Source of the DNA: an uncultured Candidatus Saccharibacteria bacterium | GTDB lineage: Bacteria; Patescibacteriota; Saccharimonadia; Saccharimonadales; Saccharimonadaceae | Assembly: GCA_963517665.1 (NCBI GenBank) | Contig: CAUQFZ010000001.1 | Coordinates: 37,182-101,181, forward strand | Length of the DNA stretch: 64,000 nt | Direction: 5' to 3' | In this document: positions 17,887-42,334 of the stretch, in pieces | How the letters are laid out: each line of letters starts with the position of its first letter | Numbering within the stretch: the stretch's first letter is position 1 | Position numbers and translations under genes: made by a program | Notes under the pieces: model-generated | The model's input: the letters and a program-made list of their open reading frames with translations, nothing else | Told to the model about the DNA's origin: nothing | The model's database searches: none

Positions 17887-19002
17887 TCAATAAGTATAAT
17901 GTGGACGATCGTTGTGTGCAAGTATTGATCGCACCTCGTCGGTCGTCTTGGTGTGCATCAGCTGGTCGCGCAGTTCCTTGGCGCCGTCGAAATCGCGGAT
18001 GTAGATTTTGAAGAAGCGTTTGAGGGTTTCGAAGGGGCGACCGAGGGTTGATTGGTAGTGGTCAAAGAGGTCAAGGTGGTAATGTAATAGACATATAAGT
18101 TCCGATTTAACATTACCGCTCCCGTCGTCGCCGTCTGCGACGGCACGTAGGTCGCTAGACGCGGGTCCTGCTAGTCGGTCCGCCCCTTCTCCTGAAAAAT
18201 CAGAGATTTGTTCAGAAGTGGGTGCTGCCCCGCCGACTATCACCCGCTTATCCTCGATCTCTGAAGACACTCCGCCTTTCCGAAAGCAAAACGGATTACT
18301 GAAGATTCCCCGCCCGATCATGATGCCGTTGAGGCCTGGGTGGGCTCTGACTAATGCTTCGCCGTGGGCGCGGTCGCGGATGTCGCCGTTGATGGTTAGC
18401 AGCGTCTGCGGGGCGATTTCATCGCGTAGTTTGACAATGTTGTCGATGAGTTCGTAGTGTGCTGGGACTTTGCTCATCTCCTTTTTGGTGCGGAGGTGGA
18501 TGGTTAAGTTGGCGAGGTCCTGCGTCAGTAGCGTGCTCAGCCACTCTCGCCATTCGTCAACATACGTATAGCCCAGCCGAGTCTTCACACTAACTGGCAA
18601 CCCAGCAGTTTTAGCAGCGGCGATGGCAGCAACCGCTACGTCGGGTCGGCGAATCAGTGCGGCACCGCCTGATTTGATGGCGGATTTGGCGGGACAGCCC
18701 ATGTTGATGTCAATGCCGTCAAAGCCGAGCTCCATGCAGTGAGCGGCAAATTGTTCCATGTCGCCCGGCTCACCACCCCAGATTTGGGCGACCAATGGAT
18801 GTTCGTCGTCGGTCTTAATCAGTCGCCCAGCGATGGCCTTGTCGCCAGCATGTACCCAGCCGGTGGCATTGGCAAACTCGGTGAAAAACACGTCGGGGGC
18901 ACCCGCCCGCTTCACGACATGACGAAACACCACGTCAGTGACGGCTTCCATGGGTGCCAAGATGAAAAACGGCTGCGGTAGGTTGTCCCAAAATGATGTC
19001 AT
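17887..19002 (-). CDS. dus: tRNA-dihydrouridine synthase with an in-frame structured insert
   Basis: LAPMEAVTD, FTEF, DINMGCP, SVKTRLG, TIHLRT, NGDI, MIGRG. Confidence 0.94.
   Translation of the reverse strand: MTSFWDNLPQPFFILAPMEAVTDVVFRHVVKRAGAPDVFFTEFANATGWVHAGDKAIAGRLIKTDDEHPLVAQIWGGEPGDMEQFAAHCMELGFDGIDINMGCPAKSAIKSGGAALIRRPDVAVAAIAAAKTAGLPVSVKTRLGYTYVDEWREWLSTLLTQDLANLTIHLRTKKEMSKVPAHYELIDNIVKLRDEIAPQTLLTINGDIRDRAHGEALVRAHPGLNGIMIGRGIFSNPFCFRKGGVSSEIEDKRVIVGGAAPTSEQISDFSGEGADRLAGPASSDLRAVADGDDGSGNVKSELICLLHYHLDLFDHYQSTLGRPFETLKRFFKIYIRDFDGAKELRDQLMHTKTTDEVRSILAHNDRPHYTY
18110..18280. repeat. Palindromic in-frame insertion in dus (boundaries approximate)
   Basis: About 55 extra residues after NPFCF; nested stems GCGGGT/ACCCGC, TAGTCGG/CCGACTA, TGAA-AAATC-aga-GATTT-g-TTCA, GCCGTC/GACGGC. 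Confidence 0.55.
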
Positions 19003-19020
19003 CTCTGTTATTTTACCACA

Positions 19021-19064
19021 AAAAAGGAGAAAACCCCCTCACTCTCGCCATTGAGAATGAGGGG
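19021..19064 (-). terminator. Intrinsic terminator of the structured transcript
   Basis: CCCCUCAUUCUC-AAUGGC-GAGAGUGAGGGG followed by GUUUUCUCCUUUUUU. Confidence 0.7.
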
Positions 19065-19180
19065 CGCTGGTGGGCTCAAGCGGTTCTGCTCGGAGTTGAT
19101 CTCGACGGTGAGAAAAACTGCCACGAGTGAATCTCGCGAACCCGGGGAGGGAGAGATGACACGCCATTGTGCCATCTCAG

Positions 19181-19250
19181 TGGATGTGACGGGAGTCAAA
19201 CCCGCGAGACGGTGGACTTCGAATGTCCTGTCTCCCTACCTGGCACACCC
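19181..19250 (-). ncRNA. D-armless tRNA-like element with G3-U70 and A73
   Basis: GGGTGTG/CACATCC-A acceptor stem; T-arm GCGGG-TTTGACT-CCCGT; helix GAGAC..GGAC-ATTCGAA-GTCC..GTCTC. Confidence 0.6.
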
Positions 19251-19453
19251 TGACCATTCTGTGTTGAAAACATTGGTCTTCTCGATGTAGCGGTATACAC
19301 CCGCTTTGGTTTGTCGTACGCCATTGGACCACAAAACAAAGCTGAGAAGTCAATGAAACTCGGGCGGAGTGGTGGAAACACCCAAGTTTTTTCGCTTACA
19401 TACGGCTTCACACGGGTGATGAGTCCGTGTGACTGCGCATGCAACCGCGACGG

Positions 19454-19541
19454 CGGACACAGCGGGACTCGAACCCGCAGCCTCCCGTTGCGTCGACACC
19501 GTTGTCGACGCGGGCGCTCTGCCGATTAGAGCTATATGTCC
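19454..19541 (-). tRNA. tRNA-like gene with a 14-nt-extended anticodon arm (mimic or pseudo-tRNA; isotype unassignable)
   Basis: GGACATA/TGTGTCC; TA-GCTC-TAATCGGCA-GAGC; AGGCT variable loop; GCGGG-TTCGAGT-CCCGC; 31-nt anticodon arm. Confidence 0.7.
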
Positions 19542-19662
19542 TGTGATTCTTTTCTGGGCTACCAGCTGGGCGAATCACCCCAGGGGCGGACAGACGCCCT
19601 TTACTGACCGCGGAGGTCAGTGGTTTCGGGGTCGCACAAACCCCAACTGTCGTATTGTGGTG

Positions 19663-19791
19663 TTACACCATGAAATGCCCGCAGTATGGGCACTTAAACT
19701 GTGTACCGGCATCTCCAGGACGCCTATACGCAACATGGTGGTTTCTACCACTGCATGTCATTGCAGTGGTATAATCTCCGTAGCTATACAT
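19663..19791 (-). CDS. Putative 42-aa CPxCG zinc-finger microprotein
   Basis: Manual translation MYSYGDYTTAMTCSGRNHHVAYRRPGDAGTQFKCPYCGHFMV*. Confidence 0.45.
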   Translation of the reverse strand: MYSYGDYTTAMTCSGRNHHVAYRRPGDAGTQFKCPYCGHFMV

Positions 19792-19970
19792 TGATGCTAC
19801 GGGATAAGAGAAAAACACCAAGGGTTTCACCCCCTTCCCGCCGCAGTTGCGGCAAAAGAAAAAGAGCTAACCCTCTCTCGAACCATGCTTTTGTGCGAAG
19901 CATGGTCAGGACTTGACGCCATTTGCGGCGTCTTGTCGAGAGTTAGCTCCATGAACAAAAGCTAATAGAT

Positions 19971-19999
19971 ATCATAACACGAACTGTAAAAAATAGCAA
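19971..19999 (-). promoter_or_regulatory. Sigma70-type promoter
   Basis: TTGCTA-N17-TATGAT with an extended TG. Confidence 0.7.
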
Positions 20000-20016
20000 C
20001 AATATATGGAAAATAA

Positions 20017-23000
20017 TTATATTTCCTCTGTCAGTAAGTCCTTTTCAAACTGTAGCATACCTTTGTAGTCTGCTGAATAGCCAGAAACGTCTGGTAGGTC
20101 CAGGGTGGTGATTTTCCGCCAGACGACACCGATGAGCCTGGTGAATTCAGCCAATTCCTCCTCAGAGAACGTATCCTCCAGGCTGAGGATATCGCCAGTT
20201 TTCATGTCTGGCTCGACGAATTGTAGTCGTCCACCAGTAAAAGTGAAATTGCTATAATCACGCGATGATGTAACTAGTAACTGATAAAACATCAGCTGCT
20301 GGCGGTATTTGTGGAGCTTGATTTTTTCATAGTCAGACGTCCCCTTCCAGGAGTGCGATGGCTTGCCAGTTTTATAGTCTGTGATGTAGATGGTCTTTGC
20401 TGTTTTGTCTATATCGACCAGGTCCAGCGAGCCTGTTAGATGCGCTTGACCGACGAAGGAATTTTGATTGGCAAAATTAAGTTCAGCCAGCTGCTGCTGG
20501 GTGAAGCTGCTTTGTTTGGCGTCCAGAAAAGCGGTCAGGACTGATTGCCCCTTTTCGGTGAATAGTTTGGTGTCATCTGGCGATAGGTGTTGTGCTGCCA
20601 AGGTTTGAGCATACAAGCGCATAATCTCTGAGCGTGGTGGCAGTGTCCCGTCCGCGACAAACATATCGTGCAGCTGCTGCAGACAGGCGTGAACCGCGGT
20701 TCCGTAGGCAGCTGATGGGCTTTTGGCTTGCGGAAAATGGAGCAAATTATTTAACAAAAATCCTTGAGGGCCGCCATGTGAGACGTCGAGGAAATTGTTC
20801 AGATGAGTGGCGGATAGTTTGTAGTGCTGTAAGATTGGCGCCAAGACTTCCTGTAGCACTCCGTTGTGCGGTTCAGTCAGCCTGGCACGCCAGTCGGTGA
20901 GCGGTGACTCGGTTGTATCAGCAGTCTCAGAGGTATCAATGGTCGACATATCTAGCTGTAGCGAGCTTAGGAAGCTGGCGATCAAGTTATCTTTACCACT
21001 GGTGTCCGTGAGACTGTGACTGAGGTGAAGGGTCTGTTTGGCGCGAGTCATGGCGACGAAAAACAGGCGTAAGCGCTCGTCATAATTGTTGCCTGCTGGT
21101 TGCAGCTGCAGGTTGGCTGGATAGCGGATGATCCGGCTGCGTGCACGGACTTTCTCGCCCCACATGTTGTCGGTCGCACCGATGATGAATACGTGTAGAA
21201 ATTCCAAGCCCTTTGATTTGTGGGCGGTCATGAGATTGATTGAGCCTGATTTGTGTTCGACGGCTGGCCTGATGCTGGTGAGGCGAGTCTTGGTCAAATG
21301 ATGGAGATCGATGAACTGGAGAAGCTGTGTCAAGGTTGGCGTTGCTTCGGTGTAGTGGTCGCGTAATTTCTGGCGCAAGGTGCGCAGCGCTTCTAGGGTG
21401 GTGAGGTAGGCTTCTGGGTCTGACTGTAATTTGTCTGGTGAAAAGTAGTAGGTGTAGAGGGAGCGGTTGGTGGCGGTTTCGGTGAGGCCTAGTAGCTCGT
21501 CAATGTGTTCTTCGAGCGTGAGATTGGGGACATTTTTGGCTTGTTCTAACAACCACTGAGCCAATGGTTCGAACGTTGCTTGAGCGAGCATGGCTTCGAG
21601 CCAGAACTGTCGGTTGCGCCAGGCTGCCAGGCTTAATTTCCAGATGTCCGTGGCGGCAAAGCCAAACGCTGGGTGCGCCAGTAACTCTGGTAGTAAGCTA
21701 TTGGTGGTGGTTAGGTCGTTGTTGTGGAGCGAGATGACGATGCGGGCTAGCAGTTCCAACGCTTTGATGCTGTCTAGCTCCAGGATGTCGTCATGGTGTT
21801 CGTAGTTGACGCTGATGTTGTTTTGATAGAGGTGAGGTAATAATTCAATCAGTTCATGATGTCGGCGAGATATGACGGTGATGTCTTCAGGTGGCGTGCC
21901 TGAGGTGATGAGATGTGCAATTTGCTTAGCAACACCTGCCCTTTCGTCTAGTGGTGTCATGAAACGACTGAGCTCGACGCTAGCGCCTGATGATGAAGCG
22001 TGGGCGGTGAGTTGTTTGGATAGGTCGGGGATGGTGTTTTCCAGGCGGTCACTGCCTTGGGTGATGACGCTGCGGGCGGTGGTGAGGATTTGCTCTGCCG
22101 AACGGTAGTTGTCGGTCAGGACGATGACGGTTGGGTCGTGATAGTGCTGACGGAAGCGCTGGATATTGCCAACATTAGCGCCCTGGAAGCTAAAAATAGC
22201 TTGGTCGTCGTCACCGACTGCCATGATGTTTGGCTCAGGCTCGTCGCCAGTCAGATTGAATAATAGCTGTAGCTGTGCCAAGTTGGTGTCCTGAAATTCG
22301 TCAACCATGATGAACTGGTATTGCTCTTGGAGGTTGGCGCGCAGATCTGGCTGGTGTTTGCAGGCATCTAGCACGTTCAAAATCATGTCATCATAGTCAA
22401 ACAATCCACGCTGTGCCAGTGCGCTGCGGTATTGGTCGTACACTGCAGTAACGGCACGCAGCTTGGCAATTGACTCGCTGTCCTTTAAGATAAATTCCCC
22501 TGCTGCATTCTTTTTGCACCACGCGTTTTTCCAGGCGGTGATGGGTTTGGTGCTGTCATTTTCCAAGGCTTCTTGCGCAGCGTTGGCCATGCTGAGTGCC
22601 AGAACATTAGCGTACGGCGTGATGGCTGCTGGCAGAGACTGTGGGGTGATGGTCGCTGCTATTTCTGCAACGTTGGCAAAGGCTGGGATGGTCGACTTTT
22701 TGATGGTGGTTTGGAAGAGCTGCGCGATGGCTTCAGCGATTTCTGTGATTGTTCGCTCCACGTCGTCCAGAATATGTTGTATTTCTTCAGAGGTCAGACC
22801 GTTGCTTTTGAATTCGGAAATGGTTTTGAGCGTTTCTTTCAGATAGATAAATTCGTCATTGTTTTTGACATTGAGCGGATTGTCCCAGCTCATGGCCTCA
22901 AAAATTTCTTGCAGAATCTGTTGCTGTGTCAGTTCGTCGGTTGGTTGCCGATCTGCACCGCGGAAGAAATATTGCCGGTTGGTGTTGATGATTTCTGAAC

Positions 23001-23280
23001 CAAAACTGTGAAACGTATGAATGGCGACTTTATAGGCATCTTCGCCGATGATTTGCTGCAATCGCTGGCGCATATTGACCGCACCCGAATCAGTAAAGGT
23101 CAGGCATAAAATATTGCTTGGCAAGGTGTCAGTTTGGCGCAATATGTGAGCAGCTCGCATGCTCAAGAGCTCGGTTTTGCCAGTGCCAGGACCCGCGATA
23201 ACCAACAGTGGCCCGTGAATTGTGTCAACGGCAGAACGTTGATTGGCATTGAGGTTGGCGTAGCGTGTAGAAAAATCCAT
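20017..23280 (-). CDS. UvrD/PcrA-family helicase fused to a C-terminal PD-(D/E)xK nuclease
   Basis: AGPGTGKT, VDEFQD, GDDDQAI, NYRS, TAHKSKGLEF, VAMTRAK; then LSAT..., GSLDLV, DYKTG, QLMFY; start after TATACT. Confidence 0.93.
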   Translation of the reverse strand: MDFSTRYANLNANQRSAVDTIHGPLLVIAGPGTGKTELLSMRAAHILRQTDTLPSNILCLTFTDSGAVNMRQRLQQIIGEDAYKVAIHTFHSFGSEIINTNRQYFFRGADRQPTDELTQQQILQEIFEAMSWDNPLNVKNNDEFIYLKETLKTISEFKSNGLTSEEIQHILDDVERTITEIAEAIAQLFQTTIKKSTIPAFANVAEIAATITPQSLPAAITPYANVLALSMANAAQEALENDSTKPITAWKNAWCKKNAAGEFILKDSESIAKLRAVTAVYDQYRSALAQRGLFDYDDMILNVLDACKHQPDLRANLQEQYQFIMVDEFQDTNLAQLQLLFNLTGDEPEPNIMAVGDDDQAIFSFQGANVGNIQRFRQHYHDPTVIVLTDNYRSAEQILTTARSVITQGSDRLENTIPDLSKQLTAHASSSGASVELSRFMTPLDERAGVAKQIAHLITSGTPPEDITVISRRHHELIELLPHLYQNNISVNYEHHDDILELDSIKALELLARIVISLHNNDLTTTNSLLPELLAHPAFGFAATDIWKLSLAAWRNRQFWLEAMLAQATFEPLAQWLLEQAKNVPNLTLEEHIDELLGLTETATNRSLYTYYFSPDKLQSDPEAYLTTLEALRTLRQKLRDHYTEATPTLTQLLQFIDLHHLTKTRLTSIRPAVEHKSGSINLMTAHKSKGLEFLHVFIIGATDNMWGEKVRARSRIIRYPANLQLQPAGNNYDERLRLFFVAMTRAKQTLHLSHSLTDTSGKDNLIASFLSSLQLDMSTIDTSETADTTESPLTDWRARLTEPHNGVLQEVLAPILQHYKLSATHLNNFLDVSHGGPQGFLLNNLLHFPQAKSPSAAYGTAVHACLQQLHDMFVADGTLPPRSEIMRLYAQTLAAQHLSPDDTKLFTEKGQSVLTAFLDAKQSSFTQQQLAELNFANQNSFVGQAHLTGSLDLVDIDKTAKTIYITDYKTGKPSHSWKGTSDYEKIKLHKYRQQLMFYQLLVTSSRDYSNFTFTGGRLQFVEPDMKTGDILSLEDTFSEEELAEFTRLIGVVWRKITTLDLPDVSGYSADYKGMLQFEKDLLTEEI

Positions 23281-23323
23281 ACTTACAGTATACGCGTGCG
23301 GTTGAAAATGGTAAAATAAAGCC

Positions 23324-23809
23324 ATGAAGCCTACAGTGACCGCGTCGGAGTTGGAAGCATTAATCAGCGAAGCCTTTGATGTTGATGTCTCAGTAAAGCG
23401 ATTTATCTTGCCGTTGGCTGATGTTGGCCGTACGGCTCAGGCGACGGTATTTATGGCATCGAACAACCGGTTATTGCTCTATTTGCGCGCGTCTTCCAAC
23501 ATGACGCTGGCGGATGTCAAGAAAATAGCAGTACGCATGGGGCTCAGGCTGGACGAGTTCTATCCGCCTAAATACCAACCGGATTATTTTAATATCCTTG
23601 GTCGCCAAAAATTTCAAGAAGTATTCCCTGGTATGACGGTGCAGTCCGAGGAAGACTTGATTTTTTACCGAACCTTGGCGCCATATAACCCTGCCCTGGC
23701 AGTGGTTTCAGAGATTAAAAATGGCGAAATCCATCAGTTTGATCCTGACGTTCACGGCGAATGGCGAGTGGGCGCACGGTTTGCCTACAGGAAGGTCCGC
23801 GCCAAGTAA
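23324..23809 (+). CDS. Hypothetical protein
   Basis: 161-aa ORF; TAAAAT 5 nt upstream; TAATG-coupled to the P-type ATPase. Confidence 0.75.
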   Translation: MKPTVTASELEALISEAFDVDVSVKRFILPLADVGRTAQATVFMASNNRLLLYLRASSNMTLADVKKIAVRMGLRLDEFYPPKYQPDYFNILGRQKFQEVFPGMTVQSEEDLIFYRTLAPYNPALAVVSEIKNGEIHQFDPDVHGEWRVGARFAYRKVRAK

Positions 23810-26130
23810 TGAACGGCTATTGGGAAATTATTCGTCGTAATTTGTTTTCGCCGATTGTTATTGCGATTTTCCTGCTGGCGGGTGCGTTGATTTATGCTCG
23901 GGAGTACCGCGATGCGTGGTTCATCTCAGTGGTGATTGTGGTAAATTCGTTGATTGGTATCATCCAGGAAATTCGCGCCAAACGGGCACTCAAGAAACTA
24001 GAGTTGATGAGTCAACCGCGGGCACGGCTGTTGTCGGCTGATGGTTCTGTGACGGAAGTGGCATATGATGCGTTGCAGGTCGGCGATAAGATTCAACTGA
24101 TCGCTGGTGATGAAGTGCCAGCAGACGTAGAGATGTTGGAGGTCAAAGGCTTGGAATTAAACGAAAGTATGTTGACTGGCGAATCAGCAGCCGTCGAAAA
24201 AAGCGTCGGCGACACGGCTTGGGCAGCAACGACTGTGTTGGCTGGGTCTGGCGAGGCTCGTGTTACGGCAGTTGGTGCGGACACAAAAGCCGGTGCCATT
24301 AGCCAAGTGCTGAAGCAGTACAAACCAGAATTGACTCCTTTGCAGCGAGCGATTCAGCGCGCTATTAGCTTTTTGACGTTTGGCGCATTTGAGCTGGCGG
24401 CGTTGATATTCATCGCCTATATGACGTCTGGTCAGGACTCGGTACAGATATTAAAAACCATTACTTCGGCGGCCGTGACGGTTGTACCAGAGGGGTTGCT
24501 GCTGGCAAGTTCATTGCTGCTAGCGTTCGGTTCGATCAAATTAGCACAAGCCAGAGTCTTGCCGCAAAAACTGTCAGCTATCGAAGCCATGGCACTGCTC
24601 AATTTGTTGTGTGTCGACAAAACCGGTACGCTTACTAGCGATGAAGTGACGTTGGAAAAAATCGTTGCTTTGGGTAGTGGCGATCAATCAGACGAAATGC
24701 TTTCAGGGATTGTTGCCTTGATCGCTGAGCAAACCAGTGGCGGTAACATCACTGGCCAAGCCATCTTGGAGGCAGCGACGCCGCTCAAGGACGCCAAGAT
24801 TATTGACGTTATGGCGTTCTCGTCTGCGCGCAAAATGGCGGGTTTGCGGTTTGAGTTTGAGGGTAGAACTCGCACGGTTGTCATGGGCGCACCAGAGTTT
24901 GTCACAGAGCTGGCTCCGGTTGATGAAATGGGCCAGCGTCAAATTAACGAATGGGCTGACGCGGGTCTGCGTGTGCTGCTGCTGGCTGAGTTTGATGATT
25001 CTCGGAGCGCTTTGAAAGATTTGCCTGCTGGGTCTGGACGTGCCATCGGTGTGGTGATTTTGCGTAATTCGCTGCGTGATGGTGTCCAGAAAACTGTTCA
25101 ATTTTTGCAAGATCAAGGCGTCAGTATCCGTGTGATATCTGGTGATAATCCACGGACGGTGCAGTTCATCGCCTCGGCGGCTGGCATCAATAATTCTGAC
25201 AAAGCCATCACTGGTGCGGCGCTGGCTGCTTTGAGTGACAAAGATTTTGTCAAGGCGGCCGACGAACACGTTATATTTGCTCGGGTGCATCCAGAGCAGA
25301 AGGAGCGGCTGATTGCGCATTACAAAAGCCAGGCCTTGTTCACGGGTATGGTCGGTGACGGTGTTAATGACGCATTGGCGCTGAAAAAAGCTGATCTTGG
25401 CGTGGCTATGCACGCGGGTGCACCAGCGTCGCGTCGTGTCTCAGACATTATTTTGTTGAACAATTCATTTACGTCTTTGCCGCTTGGTATGCGGCTGGGT
25501 AACCGAATCATGCAAGCAATTGAAGTCATCGCCACTCTGTTCTTCCACAAAATTACGTACGGTGTGGTGTTGCTGATTTGTACGCTGTCGCTGGGCATGG
25601 TCTATCCATATCAGCCGCGTCACATCACCTTTATGAATATTTTCCTAGTGACGCTGCCGACTTTGATGTGGACATTTTTTCCACCTGTACCGAACCATCG
25701 CATCAATCCTCGCCTGTTTTGGCGCCATACGCTGGTTAGCGTGATGCCCATCGCGCTGATCACGGGGTTGACAGTAGCCTTCACCTATTGGATTGGCTCT
25801 GCCATCTTCCCTGACCGTCCAGAGGAAGTTGCCACCATGACGGTGCTGACGGCAACATTCTATGGCGTCTACCTGGTATTTTTAGTTGGACCAATGCTGG
25901 GCGTTACTTTAACGCGCAACGCCAGAAAAGCGCGCTTGCTGTACATGTTGGCAGTGAGTGTTGTGGCGGCTGGTAGCTTTGGCATTGGCCCGCTTCGCCG
26001 ATTTTTCGACTTTACTAAGCCAGATATCATTGTGCTACTACCGGCGCTTGGCGTCATCGTCCTGGCGGCAACCTTACAGTGGTGGCTCGCACTGCGCGCT
26101 GGTGTGAAAGTCAGATCTTCGCAGTCTTAA
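23809..26130 (+). CDS. P-type cation-transporting ATPase (CtpE-like)
   Basis: LTGES, VPEGL, DKTGTLT, SGDN, GDGVND. Confidence 0.92.
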   Translation: MNGYWEIIRRNLFSPIVIAIFLLAGALIYAREYRDAWFISVVIVVNSLIGIIQEIRAKRALKKLELMSQPRARLLSADGSVTEVAYDALQVGDKIQLIAGDEVPADVEMLEVKGLELNESMLTGESAAVEKSVGDTAWAATTVLAGSGEARVTAVGADTKAGAISQVLKQYKPELTPLQRAIQRAISFLTFGAFELAALIFIAYMTSGQDSVQILKTITSAAVTVVPEGLLLASSLLLAFGSIKLAQARVLPQKLSAIEAMALLNLLCVDKTGTLTSDEVTLEKIVALGSGDQSDEMLSGIVALIAEQTSGGNITGQAILEAATPLKDAKIIDVMAFSSARKMAGLRFEFEGRTRTVVMGAPEFVTELAPVDEMGQRQINEWADAGLRVLLLAEFDDSRSALKDLPAGSGRAIGVVILRNSLRDGVQKTVQFLQDQGVSIRVISGDNPRTVQFIASAAGINNSDKAITGAALAALSDKDFVKAADEHVIFARVHPEQKERLIAHYKSQALFTGMVGDGVNDALALKKADLGVAMHAGAPASRRVSDIILLNNSFTSLPLGMRLGNRIMQAIEVIATLFFHKITYGVVLLICTLSLGMVYPYQPRHITFMNIFLVTLPTLMWTFFPPVPNHRINPRLFWRHTLVSVMPIALITGLTVAFTYWIGSAIFPDRPEEVATMTVLTATFYGVYLVFLVGPMLGVTLTRNARKARLLYMLAVSVVAAGSFGIGPLRRFFDFTKPDIIVLLPALGVIVLAATLQWWLALRAGVKVRSSQS

Positions 26131-27461
26131 TGCGACACTCTGTCTAAGACAACCAGATTCTCAATGTGTGGTGTGCGCGGGAAGAAATTATAGCCCTGAT
26201 GATGCACGATACGATATTTTTCACTGAGCAAAGCAACGTCTCGAGCTTGGGTAACGGGGTTGCAGCTCAGATAGACGATGCGCGGTGGCAATTTTTCTAA
26301 CAGGCGGCTAACAACGTCTGTGTGCAAACCAGCTCGTGGCGGATCGACGATGATGAGATTGTCAGGGTGAATATAATCAAGGGCTTGCTCACTGGCTGCC
26401 AAGACGGCTTTGGCATTGTTTTCGCGTCCCAAAGCGTGAATATTTCGCTGCATTTCTTTGACGGCATGTTCATTGATTTCCACCAATGTGACATGTTCTC
26501 CACCAATGGTGAGGCCGATGGTACCAACGCCCGAATACATGTCAACAGTTGCTAGAGCGTTGCTTGACCCCACTGGCGCGGTGCGAATCCACGCTGCCAT
26601 GTCGGTGAGCGCCTGTTCATATACTGGCAGGTTGACTTGGAAAAATCCTTCGGCAACATAGCGAAACGGAACGCCCAGCACTTCGTCAGCAAGAACGGTG
26701 CCGCCAAACGCTGCTAGCCGTTCGGTGATGACGCTGGCGGGGCTTTTGGGGTTAGAATAGATGATTTCTCCGCCTTGGGCTGACAGGTTAGCTGCTTCTT
26801 CGGCAGTGATGACATCTTCCAGGCGGTCTTTGAGGTATAATTGCCAAATGCACTTTCCTGACCGGCTGCATCTGATGAGTACTGTTTTGAGGTTACGTGC
26901 GGTGACTGGTTTGGTGCGCAGCAAGTCGCGAATTTCTAAGGCTAGCGTGTTGATCTCGGGACGAGCAAGCGAGGTACCGTCGACAGTGATTTTGCCCTTT
27001 GAGCCACGTCTGAAAAATGCCAAATCAAGGGTGTCGGCCTCCGACTCCGGGTCGGTGTCGCTGTACCAGCTGTATTCAACTTTGTTACGATACGCCAATT
27101 GCTGCTCGTCTGTATAGACTGTTGGTGTAGTCGGCAAGGTAACGTGATGTAGCCGAAAAGCCTCAGCAATCAACTGGGCCTTGTACTGCTGCTCTGCTGA
27201 AAAATTCATGATTTGCCAGGGGCTAGTGCTGAGATAGCTATCTGAATCAACTGGAGTGATTCGCTCAGAACTGGCGTGATGAACCTCGGTTACGACGCCT
27301 TCGACGAACTTTGATTTTTTCTTGGTCACCCTGATAGTCACTTGTTCGCCTGGCAGCCCACCCCATACAAATGCTTTGCGTCCATCCGCCAGCGTGCCAA
27401 TGGCTTGGCCGCCGCCAACGATGTTTTCCAGAGTTAACGTTGCAGTTTGCGCTTTCTTCAT
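26127..27461 (-). CDS. rlmD: TRAM-domain RNA m5U methyltransferase (RlmD/TrmA family)
   Basis: GGLPGE, YRNK, FFQVN, DMYSGVG, VDPPRAG, YLSCNP, FFPRTPHIE. Confidence 0.88.
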   Translation of the reverse strand: MKKAQTATLTLENIVGGGQAIGTLADGRKAFVWGGLPGEQVTIRVTKKKSKFVEGVVTEVHHASSERITPVDSDSYLSTSPWQIMNFSAEQQYKAQLIAEAFRLHHVTLPTTPTVYTDEQQLAYRNKVEYSWYSDTDPESEADTLDLAFFRRGSKGKITVDGTSLARPEINTLALEIRDLLRTKPVTARNLKTVLIRCSRSGKCIWQLYLKDRLEDVITAEEAANLSAQGGEIIYSNPKSPASVITERLAAFGGTVLADEVLGVPFRYVAEGFFQVNLPVYEQALTDMAAWIRTAPVGSSNALATVDMYSGVGTIGLTIGGEHVTLVEINEHAVKEMQRNIHALGRENNAKAVLAASEQALDYIHPDNLIIVDPPRAGLHTDVVSRLLEKLPPRIVYLSCNPVTQARDVALLSEKYRIVHHQGYNFFPRTPHIENLVVLDRVSH

Positions 27462-27513
27462 TGCCCTATTGTACCCCAAACAGACCGCATTTGGAAAATA
27501 GCCAAGTAGTAGC

Positions 27514-28075: not shown

Positions 28076-28150
28076 TGGGCCGTCGCCAAGTGGTAAGGCA
28101 CCAGGTTTTGGTCCTGGCATTCGGGGGTTCGAATCCCTCCGGCCCAGCCA
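28076..28150 (+). tRNA. tRNA-Gln (TTG)
   Basis: TGGGCCG/CGGCCCA-G-CCA; anticodon arm CCAGG-TT-TTG-GT-CCTGG; GTTCGAATC. Confidence 0.97.
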
Positions 28151-28201: not shown

Positions 28202-28398
28202 ATGATGAACATGGGTCTCTATATAAGGAAGGGCTCTTCTTCGCTGTTTTGGGCTGCAAGATACTCTAGTGTTTTGATCGCTAGTATCAGTAGTCGACTC
28301 TTGCATAGGGATATTGCTCGGTCTTATTTTATCTTGGTTATTGTCTATAGTGGTATCATATTATTCAATATTATTTGTCTACAATATATAATGTTTTT

Positions 28399-29985
28399 AT
28401 GATTAGCAAGATTAAACTGAAAAATTATAAAAAATATGACGAAGCTGAGTTTTGTTTCAATGCTGGGAGAAATATATTAGTTGGCGATAATAACTCTGGC
28501 AAGAGCTCACTGCTTCAAGCTATATCATTGGTATTAAACGGTAGCTATTCTCAAGTTGAAAATATAGGACTTATTAATTTGTTTAATAGTGATTCTGTGG
28601 ACATATTTTGTAAATTACCTGTCGTGGAAAGAACTATTGAAAAATTACCAGTGCTATATATAGAGCTATACTTTGACTCAACTAATGAAAAAATAAAAGA
28701 TAATTTTAATTTATATGGCAAGCATAATAGTGAAGAAAGATCGAGTTTTGGAGTAAGATTATTAGTTGAGCCGAACCTGGAAGAATATGAGAATATACTA
28801 TTGGCATTGTCAGACGAATCAATGACTTTTCCTTATGAGTATTATGGTGTAAAATTTCAATCATTTTGTGGTGCTGATTATAACAGCTATTCGAAGCCTC
28901 ATAAATTTAAATATCATTATCTAGACACTAGTCTTGTTGACACAAAAAAAGAAATCGATAAGCACATATCGATGATTTATGAAAAATCAATTGGTAAAGA
29001 TAATCAGGCTAAAATTAACCACAGTTTTAGACAGATGTCAGATGATTTTATAAAAGATATGATAAATCAAGGAATTTTACAACAAGATGAGGAATATAAA
29101 TTGCTAGTTAACAACAATAGCAATACCTCTTTCAAAGACAAAGCTACAGTTAAAAATAGCGGCGTGGATATAAGAAACTTTGGTCAGGGCGAAAAAGTTT
29201 TATTAAGTGTTCGTAATATGTATAGCGCTGTAGATGAAAAGGTTGGCGTTGTTTTAATAGAAGAACCTGAGAATCATTTAAGTTTTTTGAAAATGCACAC
29301 TTTATTAGATTATATAAATAGAAACAACGAAACACAGCTATTTATCAGTACTCACTCAAATATGATAGCTTCAAGATTAGGTTTGGATAATTGCACCATA
29401 CTACACGGTAAAAAACAGTTAAAGCTAGACAAGCTCGACAAGGAAACTGTTAAATTCTTCAATAAAACATCCAACCAAAATATCTTAAACTTTATATTAA
29501 GCAATAGGTCTATTTTGGTTGAGGGCGATTCTGAGTATATACTGCTCGAGAAAATGTACGAGATTGTAAACAGTTCTAACCCATCTCAAGACGAGGTTAT
29601 GGTCGTCTCAGTTAACGGCCTAAGTTTTAAAAGATACTTAAACGTTGCTAAAGAGCTTAATAAGAAAGTAGTTGTCATAACCGATAATGATGGTGATTAT
29701 CAAAAGAATGTAGTAGAAAGATACCAAGAATATGAAGATTGCAAAGAAATAAAAGTATTATCTCAAGATGATAGCAGTATGTATACTTTTGAAGTTTCAT
29801 TATTCAACCAAAATCAAGATTGGATAAAATTAAAGAGAATTACCAAATCTCCAAATATTCAGGACTGGATGCTTAATAATAAAAGTGAAAGTGCAATTAG
29901 AATTTTAGAAAAATTAGAAGACAATACGGATGGTTTTAAAGTGCCAGACTATATTAGGCAGGCGGTGGAATGGATAAAAAACTAA
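28399..29985 (+). CDS. gajA: OLD-family ATPase-TOPRIM nuclease, Gabija A-like
   Basis: GDNNSGKS, GQGE, IEEPENH, STHS, LVEGDSE, TDND; AT-rich. Confidence 0.85.
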   Translation: MISKIKLKNYKKYDEAEFCFNAGRNILVGDNNSGKSSLLQAISLVLNGSYSQVENIGLINLFNSDSVDIFCKLPVVERTIEKLPVLYIELYFDSTNEKIKDNFNLYGKHNSEERSSFGVRLLVEPNLEEYENILLALSDESMTFPYEYYGVKFQSFCGADYNSYSKPHKFKYHYLDTSLVDTKKEIDKHISMIYEKSIGKDNQAKINHSFRQMSDDFIKDMINQGILQQDEEYKLLVNNNSNTSFKDKATVKNSGVDIRNFGQGEKVLLSVRNMYSAVDEKVGVVLIEEPENHLSFLKMHTLLDYINRNNETQLFISTHSNMIASRLGLDNCTILHGKKQLKLDKLDKETVKFFNKTSNQNILNFILSNRSILVEGDSEYILLEKMYEIVNSSNPSQDEVMVVSVNGLSFKRYLNVAKELNKKVVVITDNDGDYQKNVVERYQEYEDCKEIKVLSQDDSSMYTFEVSLFNQNQDWIKLKRITKSPNIQDWMLNNKSESAIRILEKLEDNTDGFKVPDYIRQAVEWIKN

Positions 29986-42097: not shown

Positions 42098-42334
42098 TGT
42101 AATTACTCTCTCCTCATCCAGGCGGAGTGCCTGTGCCTTCCCTTCAGGAAAAGCACTGCTCTTGGCGCCCGGATGGCGCGTGAGCAAGATGAGGTTTCAA
42201 AGCACTATTTGCCCAATCTGTGTAGACATGCCAAAATAACGCTGCAAAATCTCACCTCGCTCTATTCTCAACTGCTTGTCAACATACAACTTTTGGACAA
42301 AGCCATAAAACTTCGTCAACAAAAGTCTACTATC

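What the first reader, a model, noticed from the sequence alone, without database searches (positions are those of the whole stretch)
19021..19999. ~950-nt ornate RNA transcription unit containing tRNA mimics, upstream of dus
Seen: nearly 1 kb without a credible long ORF in a very gene-dense genome, bounded by a TTGCTA-N17-TATGAT promoter and a hairpin + U-tract terminator. It is tiled with stems, e.g. GAGCTAAC/GTTAGCTC enclosing ACCATGCTT/AAGCATGGT and GACGCC/GGCGTC; TACCACTGCA/TGCAGTGGTA; CCGTAGC/GCTACGG; TCACACGG/CCGTGTGA; AAACTTGGGTG/CGCCCGAGTTT. Imperfect pairs are G-U only on the minus strand, which points to selection at the RNA level. I see no RNase P, SRP, tmRNA or rRNA signature. Known: large ncRNAs such as GOLLD can embed tRNAs. 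Inference: a new large ncRNA, or a polycistron of small RNAs cut apart at its tRNA-like units. A U-tract near 19855 suggests an attenuated ~110-nt 5' product.
Basis: partly seen in the sequence, partly recalled or inferred. Interest (0 to 1): 0.88.

Follow-up and report, generated by a model that had tools for sequence, protein, structure and literature searches.

The report
Small-protein gene with tRNA mimics
The supposed 950-base giant RNA is a lineage-specific transcription unit of oral Saccharibacteria in which a short, exchangeable protein gene is embedded among conserved RNA folds, including transfer-RNA look-alikes that cannot be charged and probably mark where the transcript is cut.

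Summary
The structural observation is real: window 19003-20016 (minus strand) has a promoter, a terminator, two tRNA-shaped elements and folds far better than shuffles (z -10.9). It is not one ornate non-coding RNA. Bases 19821-19663 are a Shine-Dalgarno-led 52-codon ORF under purifying selection (differences by codon position 6/5/27). In related genomes this slot holds at least six unrelated small ORFs.

The rest is conserved structured RNA:
- a 5' three-way hairpin followed by a CU tract;
- a three-hairpin, pseudoknot-like module C (17 of 35 pairs with double changes);
- tRNA mimics that keep only the acceptor stem, T arm and a GG 'elbow' (38 distinct);
- a near-invariant rod, F.

The unit is single-copy. 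F was found in 98 of 131 genomes of the genus (Candidatus Nanosynbacter) and in none of 150 other genomes of the order.

The mimics lack an encoded CCA, whereas 43 of 44 tRNA calls in this genome carry one. No CCA-adding enzyme or RNase Z was found.

Best reading (inferred, no RNA data): the mimics punctuate the transcript for RNase P and tRNA-end processing, yielding a small-protein mRNA with a structured 3' end plus a mimic-headed ncRNA.

The parts
19971..19999 (-). Promoter: TTGCTA, 17-nt spacer, TG-extended TATGAT. The predicted transcript start is near 19964.
   Evidence: The same sequence occurs in 9 of 9 close relatives, a near-identical form in most others, and a second promoter-like variant (TTGACA type) in L010/L013.
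19864..19949 (-). Leader module A. The closing stem GAGCTAAC/GTTAGCTC encloses CTCTCGA/TCGAGAG and two hairpins (GACGCC/GGCGTC and ACCATGCTT/AAGCATGGT).
   Evidence: On 32 distinct long-form leaders, 11 of 25 predicted pairs show double changes. Among 120 loci, 56 have the long form, 28 a short one-hairpin form and 36 are other or truncated.
19827..19863 (-). CU-rich tract TTTTTCTTTT (19863-19854), hairpin GCCGCAACTGCGGC (19853-19840) and purine tract with the Shine-Dalgarno GGGGGTGA (19834-19827). The CU tract can pair with the purine tract.
   Evidence: The MFE structure pairs the two tracts. In short-form leaders CTCTTTTCT faces AGAAAAGAG directly. Whether this acts as a terminator, as SD masking, or both is inferred.
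19663..19821 (-). Small ORF: TTG start, 52 codons plus stop. It is a zinc-ribbon-like protein with one CPYC motif. This slot is exchangeable.
   Evidence: differences by codon position 6/5/27, 20 synonymous against 11 non-synonymous codon changes, no indels; other ORF families occupy the same slot; a contig of run X3 has 181 other letters in place of 19650-19817; only 2 database homologs.
19542..19651 (-). Module C: three hairpins, then a hairpin whose loop GUGAUUC can pair with GAAUCAC just before TL1 (pseudoknot), plus an A-rich tract.
   Evidence: on 25 distinct sequences: 91.9% of cells paired, 17 of 35 pairs with double changes, 0 of 500 shuffles reach the score, slid controls at most 50% paired. 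The pseudoknot helix itself hardly varies, so covariation does not prove it.
19455..19541 (-). TL1, a tRNA mimic. It has a 7-bp acceptor stem, D arm and T arm, but the anticodon arm is replaced by the rod CGTCGACA-ACGG-TGTCGACG. It is followed by GCCG, not CCA.
   Evidence: ARAGORN calls it Ser(cga) here and Val(gac) in 3 of 9 close relatives. The real tRNA-Ser(CGA) is elsewhere.
19251..19454 (-). Module E: optional structured spacer containing TCACACGG/CCGTGTGA and AAACTTGGGTG/CGCCCGAGTTT.
   Evidence: It is present in the close relatives and, in altered form, in some others (L011, L015, L017, L018). It is absent from the shortest units (L012, L014, L016, L019).
19182..19250 (-). TL2, a second tRNA mimic. 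It has no D stem, carries G3:U70 and A73, and has a hairpin with loop AUUCGAA. It is followed by CTG.
   Evidence: ARAGORN calls it tRNA-Arg(tcg) in 3 of 9 close relatives and not in the window. The same type is the only mimic in the sub-clade L038-L046.
19153..19178 (-). Hairpin G (GAGATGGCAC...GTGTCATCTC).
   Evidence: The sequence differs but the hairpin is kept in other genomes, by eye on the alignment. No count was made.
19072..19143 (-). Module F: a long, irregular rod with nearly invariant strands (core CAGAACCGCTTGAGCCC).
   Evidence: on 61 distinct sequences: 97% paired, 6 of 24 pairs with double changes. The alignment is fitted to the model. One copy per genome; found in 98 of 131 genus genomes.
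19024..19064 (-). Intrinsic terminator of the unit (12-bp stem, U tract).
   Evidence: Conserved in the alignments.
19010..19018 (-). dus's own promoter element, TGGTAAAAT, 7 nt before the dus ATG. It is not part of the unit and marks its border.
   Evidence: Sequence. Invariant TAAAATAACAGAG in 12 of 12 rows. Promoter function is inferred.

Best explanation
This is a self-contained, lineage-specific transcription unit, not one giant RNA. One promoter drives a highly structured transcript with four parts.

1. A leader hairpin followed by a CU tract that can mask the ribosome-binding site or terminate early.
2. A roughly 50-codon gene for a small, often zinc-binding protein. Strains exchange this gene like a cassette between conserved flanks.
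3. One or two tRNA mimics that keep only the acceptor stem, the T arm and the elbow GG.
4. A conserved rod-shaped RNA (F) and a terminator.

I propose that the mimics act as punctuation. RNase P cuts at the 5' side of the first mimic. That leaves the small-protein mRNA ending in the pseudoknotted module C, which shields its 3' end. It also releases a mimic-headed non-coding RNA carrying rod F.

Shown here: the ORF is coding, the folds are conserved with covariation, and the mimics cannot be charged in this organism. Inferred: the cleavage, the 3'-end protection and any function of F.
For: Coding ORF:
- L001 against L004 differs at codon positions 6/5/27, with 20 synonymous against 11 non-synonymous codon changes and no indels. 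GGGGGTGA lies 5 nt before the TTG.

Cassette behaviour:
- Different small ORFs, each behind an SD, occupy the same slot. An automatic pick over 120 loci (some genomes fetched twice) gave 11 clusters, at least three of them wrong-frame picks. By eye this leaves at least six unrelated families.
- One public contig carries 181 other letters in place of 19650-19817.

Mimics (38 distinct sequences among 47 found in 40 loci):
- The acceptor stem pairs in 36-38 of 38 at each position, with AT/GT/GC and CG/TA exchange at positions 3-7.
- The T loop is TTCGAnT in 34 of 38. The middle part varies from 48 to 91 nt.
- GG occurs within 15 nt after the acceptor strand in 38 of 38, against 54% of background windows. 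G+1 occurs in 35 of 38.
- The tail is R73-C74-Y75 in 36 of 38 but NCCA in only 4 of 38. Bacterial RNase P pairs its L15 GGU with R73, C74 and C75 (review PMC4919922, passages read), so RCY keeps that contact while A76 is lost.

This genome:
- It has RNase P RNA at 269 bits.
- 43 of 44 ARAGORN tRNA calls have an encoded CCA; the exception is TL1.
- No PF01743 or TIGR02651 match was found.

Placement and structure:
- The first mimic always follows module C directly, after GAAAAGAATCA plus 1-2 nt.
- Module C is supported by covariation.

Distribution and context:
- Single copy.
- Helicase-unit synteny holds in all 40 loci tested with both neighbours.
- The neighbours are housekeeping genes.
- Related genera of the family also have a CCA-less tRNA mimic and/or small ORFs before dus.
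Against: - No RNA evidence exists. No run on record as RNA holds the stretch.
- The one suggestive contig (run X4, 433 nt) carries cDNA-adapter-like letters. It joins the ORF 3' part, module C and TL1 in one piece. If it is RNA, uncut molecules exist, and its end 7 nt past TL1 would fit a 3'-terminal mimic as well as or better than RNase P cutting.
- The base before the mimic is A in 30 of 38, not the U that bacterial RNase P prefers.
- The pseudoknot helix is invariant, so it is unproven.
- Three genomes (L039, L041, L042) lack the pseudoknot part of C.
- Nothing explains the near-invariance of F.
- The proteins have no assignable function: no Pfam or PHROG family above its cut-off and AlphaFold pLDDT 58.
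Confidence: 0.5

Rival explanations
1. The mimic is not a cleavage site. It is a functional end-structure or decoy: a 3'-terminal tRNA-like cap on the small-protein mRNA (as in plant-virus TLS with upstream pseudoknots), or a bait for a protein that binds the tRNA elbow, such as a T-loop modification enzyme or Dus.
For: - The X4 contig joins ORF, module C and TL1 and ends 7 nt after TL1 beside adapter-like letters.
- The pseudoknot-then-tRNA-like order resembles viral TLS (recalled).
- The elbow GG and T loop are kept in 38 of 38 and 34 of 38.
- Genes for tRNA enzymes lie nearby: dus, and a TrmA-like gene at 26127-27479.
Against: - Whether X4 is RNA is only a guess, and it is a single contig.
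- No 3' end-forming signal follows TL1.
- G+1, the 7-bp acceptor stem and the R-C-Y tail are what RNase P reads.
- The D loop, Dus's target, is not conserved.
- In one sub-clade about 1 kb and another gene lie between the unit and dus.
Confidence: 0.2
2. It is a single large ornate non-coding RNA of the GOLLD/ROOL kind with embedded tRNAs.
For: - Extreme folding z-score.
- Many covarying hairpins.
- tRNA-like elements inside.
Against: - There is a coding signature in 19821-19663.
- The ORF slot and the leader are replaced by unrelated sequence in relatives.
- Length ranges from 666 to 1056 nt through module gain and loss.
- No Rfam match to any large RNA at E up to 10.
Confidence: 0.05
3. It is a cis-regulatory leader of dus: a tRNA-shaped operator and attenuator through which Dus, or tRNA supply, controls dus transcription.
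For: - It lies directly upstream of dus in the window and in most relatives.
- Other genera also have a tRNA mimic before dus.
- A terminator stands between the unit and dus.
Against: - dus has its own conserved TGnTAAAAT element 7 nt before its ATG.
- The unit carries its own promoter and its own ORF.
- In the sub-clade L038-L046/L048 another gene and about 1 kb separate module F from dus.
- The linkage that is always kept is to the helicase gene's 3' end.
Confidence: 0.08
4. It is a neutral relic: decaying duplicate tRNA genes and leftovers of integrated mobile DNA at a tRNA attachment site.
For: - The mimics look tRNA-derived: TL1 has a Ser-like G73 end and TL2 an Ala/tmRNA-like G3:U70 with A73.
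- Content varies between strains.
Against: - Module F is found in 98 of 131 genus genomes. A diverged unit is also present in 2 of 2 non-hit genomes inspected.
- Compensatory changes occur throughout.
- The ORF is under purifying selection.
- No integrase or other mobile gene is nearby.
- No repeats of the unit occur elsewhere in the genome.
Confidence: 0.07
5. The mimics are chargeable: a special tRNA or a second, tmRNA-like rescue RNA (alanine identity G3:U70 with A73).
For: - 15 of 38 distinct mimics have G3:U70, and the commonest tail, ACTG (18 of 38), begins with A73.
- The tmRNA model matches TL2 at 23.5 bits.
- L011-type mimics carry the tmRNA-like AUUCUGGA.
Against: - There is no CCA end in 34 of 38, and A76 is mostly G.
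- No CCA-adding enzyme was found in a 99.9%-complete genome.
- Ordinary tRNAs score as high on the tmRNA model, and the real ssrA (84.4 bits) is elsewhere.
- There is no 7-nt anticodon loop in TL1 and no tag frame.
Confidence: 0.05

Closest known systems
MALAT1 / MEN-beta 3'-end formation (tRNA-like mascRNA cut by RNase P, upstream 3'-end-protecting structure)
   Same: A tRNA-shaped element sits directly after a conserved structured element with an A-rich tract. The proposed logic is also the same: RNase P makes the 3' end of the upstream RNA, and that structure then protects it. (Review PMC4919922, passages read; the triple-helix details are recalled.)
   Different: MALAT1 is eukaryotic, nuclear and non-coding. 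Here the upstream RNA is a bacterial small-protein mRNA. The protecting fold is hairpins plus a putative pseudoknot, not a U-A-U triple helix. No RNase Z was found to free the mimic. Cleavage has not been shown.
tRNA punctuation and tRNA genes co-transcribed with mRNAs or rRNAs (mitochondrial transcripts; bacterial mixed operons; RNase P action on polycistronic mRNAs)
   Same: tRNA shapes inside a longer transcript act as cut marks for the tRNA-processing enzymes. Bacterial RNase P is known to process mRNAs, tmRNA and 4.5S RNA.
   Different: Those marks are mostly real, decodable tRNAs. Here the marks keep only the acceptor stem, T arm and elbow, lack CCA, and cannot serve in translation in a genome without a CCA-adding enzyme.
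tmRNA (SsrA)
   Same: It has the same ingredients: a short ORF, pseudoknots, and a D-stem-less tRNA-like domain with G3:U70 and A73 in TL2-type mimics.
   Different: The topology differs: the ORF has its own SD and start, and the tRNA-like domain is intact and lies downstream. The score is 23.5 bits against a cut-off of 47. There is no CCA. The true ssrA is at another locus.
Dual-function RNAs such as S. aureus RNAIII (recalled)
   Same: A long, many-hairpin transcript that also encodes a small protein.
   Different: No target-pairing loops were identified. A search for complements of the conserved parts in the own genome found none. The ORF is exchangeable. tRNA mimics are present.
GOLLD / ROOL large ornate RNAs
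   Same: Size range, richness in hairpins, and association with tRNA-like sequence.
   Different: There is no Rfam match at E up to 10. This is a chromosomal, single-copy, housekeeping context. It contains a translated-looking ORF and is modular rather than one fold.

Membership tests
tRNA (RF00005) | Score over the family cut-off and a cloverleaf call | tested here: met
   TL1 scores 45.9 bits against a cut-off of 29, and ARAGORN calls it tRNA-Ser(cga). TL2 is not called by either tool in the window.
tRNA (RF00005) | 5-bp anticodon stem with a 7-nt loop and a stable anticodon reading | tested here: not met
   TL1's arm is a 4-bp stem plus an 8-bp rod with a tetraloop. ARAGORN's reading flips between Ser(cga) and Val(gac) among 9 close relatives. 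The middle part of the mimics ranges from 48 to 91 nt.
tRNA (RF00005) | 3' CCA end, encoded in this genome's tRNA genes or added by an enzyme | tested here: not met
   43 of 44 tRNA calls have an encoded CCA; TL1 has GCCG. NCCA occurs in 4 of 38 distinct mimics. No PF01743 match was found.
tmRNA (RF00023) | Score over the cut-off, spanning the tRNA-like and mRNA-like domains | tested here: not met
   23.5 bits against a cut-off of 47, aligned to the two ends of the model only. Ordinary tRNAs of the genome score 13-32 bits. The real tmRNA scores 84.4 bits on another contig.
tmRNA (RF00023) | G3:U70 and A73 alanine identity with a CCA end | tested here: inconclusive
   TL2 has G3:U70 and A73 (15 of 38 distinct mimics carry G3:U70), but the tail is CUG, not CCA.
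Large ornate RNAs (GOLLD, ROOL, HEARO, OLE, raiA) and riboswitches in Rfam 15 | Covariance-model match | tested here: not met
   There is no match to any of them at E up to 10 in 18900-20100, and none at the gathering score in the whole window.
RNase P substrate of the tRNA-like kind | Acceptor stem stacked on a T arm with a T loop and elbow, G+1, and an R73-C74-C75 contact | tested here: met
   7-bp acceptor stem; TTCGAnT in 34 of 38; GG in 38 of 38; G+1 in 35 of 38; R-C-Y in 36 of 38. The defining features are taken from PMC4919922.
RNase P substrate of the tRNA-like kind | Actual cleavage at the -1/+1 bond | not testable with these tools
   No RNA run holds the stretch. A possible cDNA contig spans the junction uncut.
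MALAT1-type 3'-end module | U-rich motifs forming a triple helix with the A-rich tract | tested here: not met
   Module C has an A-rich tract (GAAAAGAAUCA) but no U-rich internal loops. Its supported helices are three hairpins plus a hairpin and putative pseudoknot.
Type I toxin-antitoxin mRNA | Small hydrophobic membrane peptide with an antisense RNA | tested here: not met
   The ORF families are hydrophilic, helical or Cys-rich zinc-finger-like. An antisense promoter was not looked for beyond, which found none on the plus strand.

The most novel reading that the evidence does not exclude
Nanosynbacter carries a bacterial counterpart of tRNA-punctuated, MALAT1-like RNA maturation. A fixed RNA chassis (leader, 3'-end-shielding pseudoknot module, unchargeable tRNA mimic, conserved rod RNA) serves as an expression and processing platform. 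Strains swap unrelated small-protein genes in and out of it. Its 3' product, headed by a tRNA mimic and carrying the near-invariant rod F, is a new stable regulatory or protein-binding RNA of these epibionts.
Probability: 0.3. Interest if true: 0.8.

Novelty: new variant of a known kind. Interest (0 to 1): 0.6.

Why it matters
Saccharibacteria have tiny, gene-dense genomes. A TM7x transcriptome preprint states that the species has 'no currently validated small RNAs' (10.1101/2022.03.25.485537, one passage read).

A single-copy unit of 0.7-1 kb, found across most of the genus and made mostly of covarying RNA structure, is therefore a strong candidate for the first defined RNA element of this group.

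It also offers a clean natural case of tRNA shapes kept only for their upper half. The organism appears to have neither a CCA-adding enzyme nor RNase Z, which makes the question 'what reads a tRNA mimic if not the translation machinery?' directly testable.

The exchangeable small ORFs point to strain-variable small proteins in an epibiont whose host interaction is poorly understood.

Tried and rejected
- **RNA evidence.** The look-up of sequencing runs listed no RNA holder. All four runs laid were contigs. Parts without cover say nothing. The strand of the adapter-bearing X4 contig cannot be told, because the adapter-like letters fit either a template-switch oligo or a tailed random primer.
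- **SRP RNA, 6S RNA and Y RNA as identities for rod F.** No RF00169, RF01854 or RF00013 match, and no SRP54 M domain or TROVE protein, in the own genome. F is none of these.
- **RNA targets.** No second copy and no complement (up to 3 mismatches) of the F strands or of the third hairpin of module C (19601-19583) in the own genome. Hits to the 14-nt tail are chance-level.
- **Protein identity.** Pfam and PHROGs gave nothing above a cut-off. The best was phrog_3931 at 9.2e-06, for the DnaJ-like cassette of another genome. The protein database gave 2 homologs. The ESM Atlas gave only small zinc-binding look-alikes, at score 0.92 with a low shared-feature count. AlphaFold2 on 7 sequences gave pLDDT 58, so no fold search was made.
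- **Paralogs.** No paralogs of the cassette proteins in the own genome.
- **Terminator inside F.** The terminator-like hairpin at 19139-19121 was rejected because its U tract is missing in the sub-clade L038-L046.
- **Module A as a riboswitch.** Considered and not adopted. At least three unrelated leader forms occur before the same SD.
- **Literature.** 'Saccharibacteria' with 'tRNA-like' found 0 papers. Two further searches listed nothing describing this unit (search listings only).
Full report
**What is at the coordinates**

Window 19003-20016 is the gap between two minus-strand genes. Upstream is an AddA-like UvrD/PD-(D/E)XK helicase-nuclease (20017-23325). Downstream is a dihydrouridine synthase gene (17887-19002).

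The hairpin plus U tract is at 19064-19024. Six terminator-like sites were found where shuffles give 1.3.

The 979-nt stretch folds at -408.5 kcal/mol against -327.3 +/- 7.4 for 20 dinucleotide shuffles, z -10.93.

Rfam gives only a tRNA match (19454-19541, 45.9 bits) above any cut-off. At E up to 10 it shows a 23.5-bit match of the tmRNA model at 19178-19250 and nothing for any large RNA family.

The genome's real tmRNA (84.4 bits) and RNase P RNA (269 bits) lie on another contig. Ordinary tRNAs score as high on the tmRNA model as the 19178-19250 element does.

So the observation of a long, ORF-poor, highly structured, promoter-to-terminator unit with tRNA-like parts is real.

**It contains a protein gene**

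Comparison with relatives changes the picture. A BLAST of the stretch against 61 genomes matched 28 of 36 other genomes of the same genus and none of 24 genomes from other families. The matches fell in separate blocks.

In all 20 loci fetched, the stretch lies between the same two genes and is 668-1035 nt long.

In the alignments, block 19821-19663 either changes mainly at every third base or is replaced outright. It is an ORF of 52 codons with a TTG start at 19821, and GGGGGTGA lies five bases upstream.

Between the window and L004 the differences by codon position are 6/5/27. There are 20 synonymous and 11 non-synonymous codon changes and no indels.

It keeps only 5-7 of 10 pairs in three diverged relatives. 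CCGTAGC/GCTACGG, also inside the ORF, is kept.

**The ORF slot is exchangeable**

In other genomes the same slot, behind the same kind of SD, holds other ORFs of about 50-60 codons:
- a helical type ending KLHW;
- a 'TW..R...AGG.LS.FE.RKL' type;
- DnaJ-like CxxCxGxG zinc fingers;
- a CxGCCPN...H...CSxC type, also present before dus in another genus;
- further zinc ribbons.

An automatic pick over 120 loci gave 11 clusters. Some genomes were fetched twice, and at least three clusters are wrong-frame picks. By eye there are at least six unrelated families.

A public contig carries 181 other letters in place of 19650-19817, the same borders.

None of the proteins reaches a Pfam or PHROG cut-off. 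The window's protein has 2 homologs among 5.8 billion sequences and no paralog in its genome. The Atlas look-alikes are small zinc-binding proteins. The AlphaFold model is unreliable, pLDDT 58.

**The conserved RNA parts**

On 32 distinct long-form leaders, 11 of 25 predicted pairs show double changes. The leader comes in at least three unrelated forms: 56 long, 28 short and 36 other or truncated among 120 loci (sequences).

It is followed by TTTTTCTTTT (19863-19854), which the MFE fold pairs with the purine tract holding the SD. In short forms CTCTTTTCT directly faces AGAAAAGAG.

It could mask the ribosome-binding site, or do both. That is inference.

*Module C (19651-19542).* Three hairpins are followed by a hairpin whose loop GUGAUUC can pair with GAAUCAC just before TL1.

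On 25 distinct sequences, 91.9% of cells pair. 17 of 35 pairs have changes on both sides. 0 of 500 shuffles reach the score, and slid controls pair at most 50%.

The pseudoknot helix is nearly invariant and therefore unproven. Three genomes lack that part.

*Rod F (19143-19072).* This is a long irregular helix with almost invariant strands. On 61 distinct sequences, 97% of cells pair and 6 of 24 pairs show double changes, on an alignment fitted to the model.

**The tRNA mimics**

In 40 loci I found 47 mimics, 38 of them distinct.
- All have a 7-bp acceptor stem, paired in 36-38 of 38 at each position, with AT/GT/GC and CG/TA exchange at positions 3-7.
- All have a T arm, and 34 of 38 have the T loop TTCGAnT.
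- All 38 have GG within 15 nt after the 5' acceptor strand, against 54% of background windows. 35 of 38 start with G.
- The rest is free. Lengths run from 48 to 91 nt, with or without a D stem, and with rods or short hairpins in place of an anticodon arm.

TL1 of the window (19541-19455) has the rod CGTCGACA-ACGG-TGTCGACG. ARAGORN reads it as Ser(cga) here and as Val(gac) in three of nine close relatives. TL2 (19250-19182) has no D stem and carries G3:U70 with A73.

The 3' tail is R-C-Y in 36 of 38 but NCCA in only 4 of 38.

In this genome 43 of 44 ARAGORN tRNA calls carry an encoded CCA. The single exception is TL1. Neither a CCA-adding enzyme (PF01743) nor RNase Z (TIGR02651) was found in a 99.9%-complete assembly, and both searches rang in the control genomes.

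The mimics therefore cannot be charged here. What selection keeps is the upper half of a tRNA.

**Distribution**

A covariance model of F found:
- one copy in the own genome;
- none in 150 other genomes sampled across the order, covering 120 other genera, three of them in the same family;
- one copy in 98 of 131 genomes of the genus, and in 69 of 79 high-quality ones.

In the two non-hit genomes whose locus I read (of five queried with dus, three matched), a diverged unit with promoter, ORF, module C, mimics and an F-like rod is present. So 98 is a lower bound.

Record titles place the relatives in Candidatus Saccharibacteria, many of them in Candidatus Nanosynbacter.

Two other genera of the family also have a 600-900-nt region before dus. 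It holds small ORFs, and in one of them a CCA-less tRNA mimic with a 6-nt 'anticodon' loop.

In one sub-clade about 1 kb with another gene lies between F and dus. The constant neighbour is therefore the helicase gene, not dus.

The surroundings are housekeeping genes: ATP synthase, a P-type ATPase and a TrmA-like methyltransferase. No mobile-element genes are present.

**How it most likely works**

*Shown:* a single promoter-to-terminator unit; a translatable, selected small ORF; covarying RNA modules on the minus strand; unchargeable tRNA mimics placed immediately after module C.

*Inferred:* the mimics are punctuation marks.

Bacterial RNase P reads the acceptor/T-arm stack and pairs its L15 GGU with R73, C74 and C75. 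It is known to process mRNAs, tmRNA and other non-tRNA substrates (review PMC4919922, passages read).

The mimics keep exactly those features, with U75 still able to wobble-pair, while they lose A76 and the anticodon.

Cutting at G+1 would leave the small-protein mRNA ending two or three bases after the GAAUCAC strand of module C. That is a 3' end buried in structure. The logic is that of MALAT1 (recalled).

The downstream product would be a mimic-headed RNA carrying hairpin G, rod F and the terminator. The invariance of F suggests a sequence-specific partner. I found no RNA target for it in the genome.

**Against this reading**

- There are no RNA data. No listed holder is on record as RNA.
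- One 433-nt contig of a small run carries cDNA-adapter-like letters and joins the ORF end, module C and TL1. It ends 7 nt past TL1. If it is RNA, uncut molecules exist, and a 3'-terminal mimic (viral-TLS-like cap or protein bait) fits as well. I give that rival 0.2.
- The base before the mimic is A in 30 of 38, not the preferred U.

**Verdict**

The finding is real but mis-described. It is a composite small-protein/RNA unit, new as a whole and built from known kinds of parts.

One preprint states that TM7x has no validated small RNAs (10.1101/2022.03.25.485537, one passage read). Searches for 'Saccharibacteria' with 'tRNA-like' found no paper, and two further searches listed nothing relevant (listings only).

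Noticed in passing
whole genome of the window (G000) and 60 other genomes of the order: No SRP RNA was found. RF00169 matched 0 of 61 genomes sampled across the order. RF01854 and the SRP54 M domain (PF02978) matched 0 of 1 in the own 99.9%-complete genome. The same searches rang in 11-14 of 14 control genomes. Either the signal recognition particle is missing or it is very divergent in this order.
   Followed up: partly
whole genome of the window (G000): No CCA-adding enzyme (PF01743) and no RNase Z (TIGR02651) were found, while 43 of 44 ARAGORN tRNA calls carry an encoded CCA. This is a coherent minimal tRNA-maturation set.
   Followed up: yes
window 42105-42198 (-): A full-length RAGATH-10 RNA (RF03147, 88.8 bits against a cut-off of 41.2).
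   Followed up: no
window 28375-29985 (+), beside tRNA-Gln 28076-28150: An OLD-family AAA/TOPRIM nuclease gene, a candidate defence gene, next to a tRNA gene.
   Followed up: no
window 19002-19018 (-): dus has a TG-extended -10 element (TGGTAAAAT) only 7 nt before its ATG. TAAAATAACAGAG is invariant in 12 of 12 aligned genomes. The gene looks leaderless or nearly so.
   Followed up: partly
L038-L046, L048 (sub-clade of the genus): After the unit's terminator comes a conserved segment of about 130 nt and a further gene starting MNAAQLLQEIL. dus lies about 1 kb further on.
   Followed up: partly
L032 843-920 and L033 2230-2862 (other genera of the family): The region before dus there also holds small ORFs. 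One is a Cys-rich CxGCCPN type shared with the genus. L032 has a CCA-less tRNA mimic with a 6-nt loop, which ARAGORN reports with a 4-base anticodon.
   Followed up: partly
L139 (G190:C13:52-381): The dus match in this genome carries one in-frame TAG. It lies at a contig end and was not examined.
   Followed up: no
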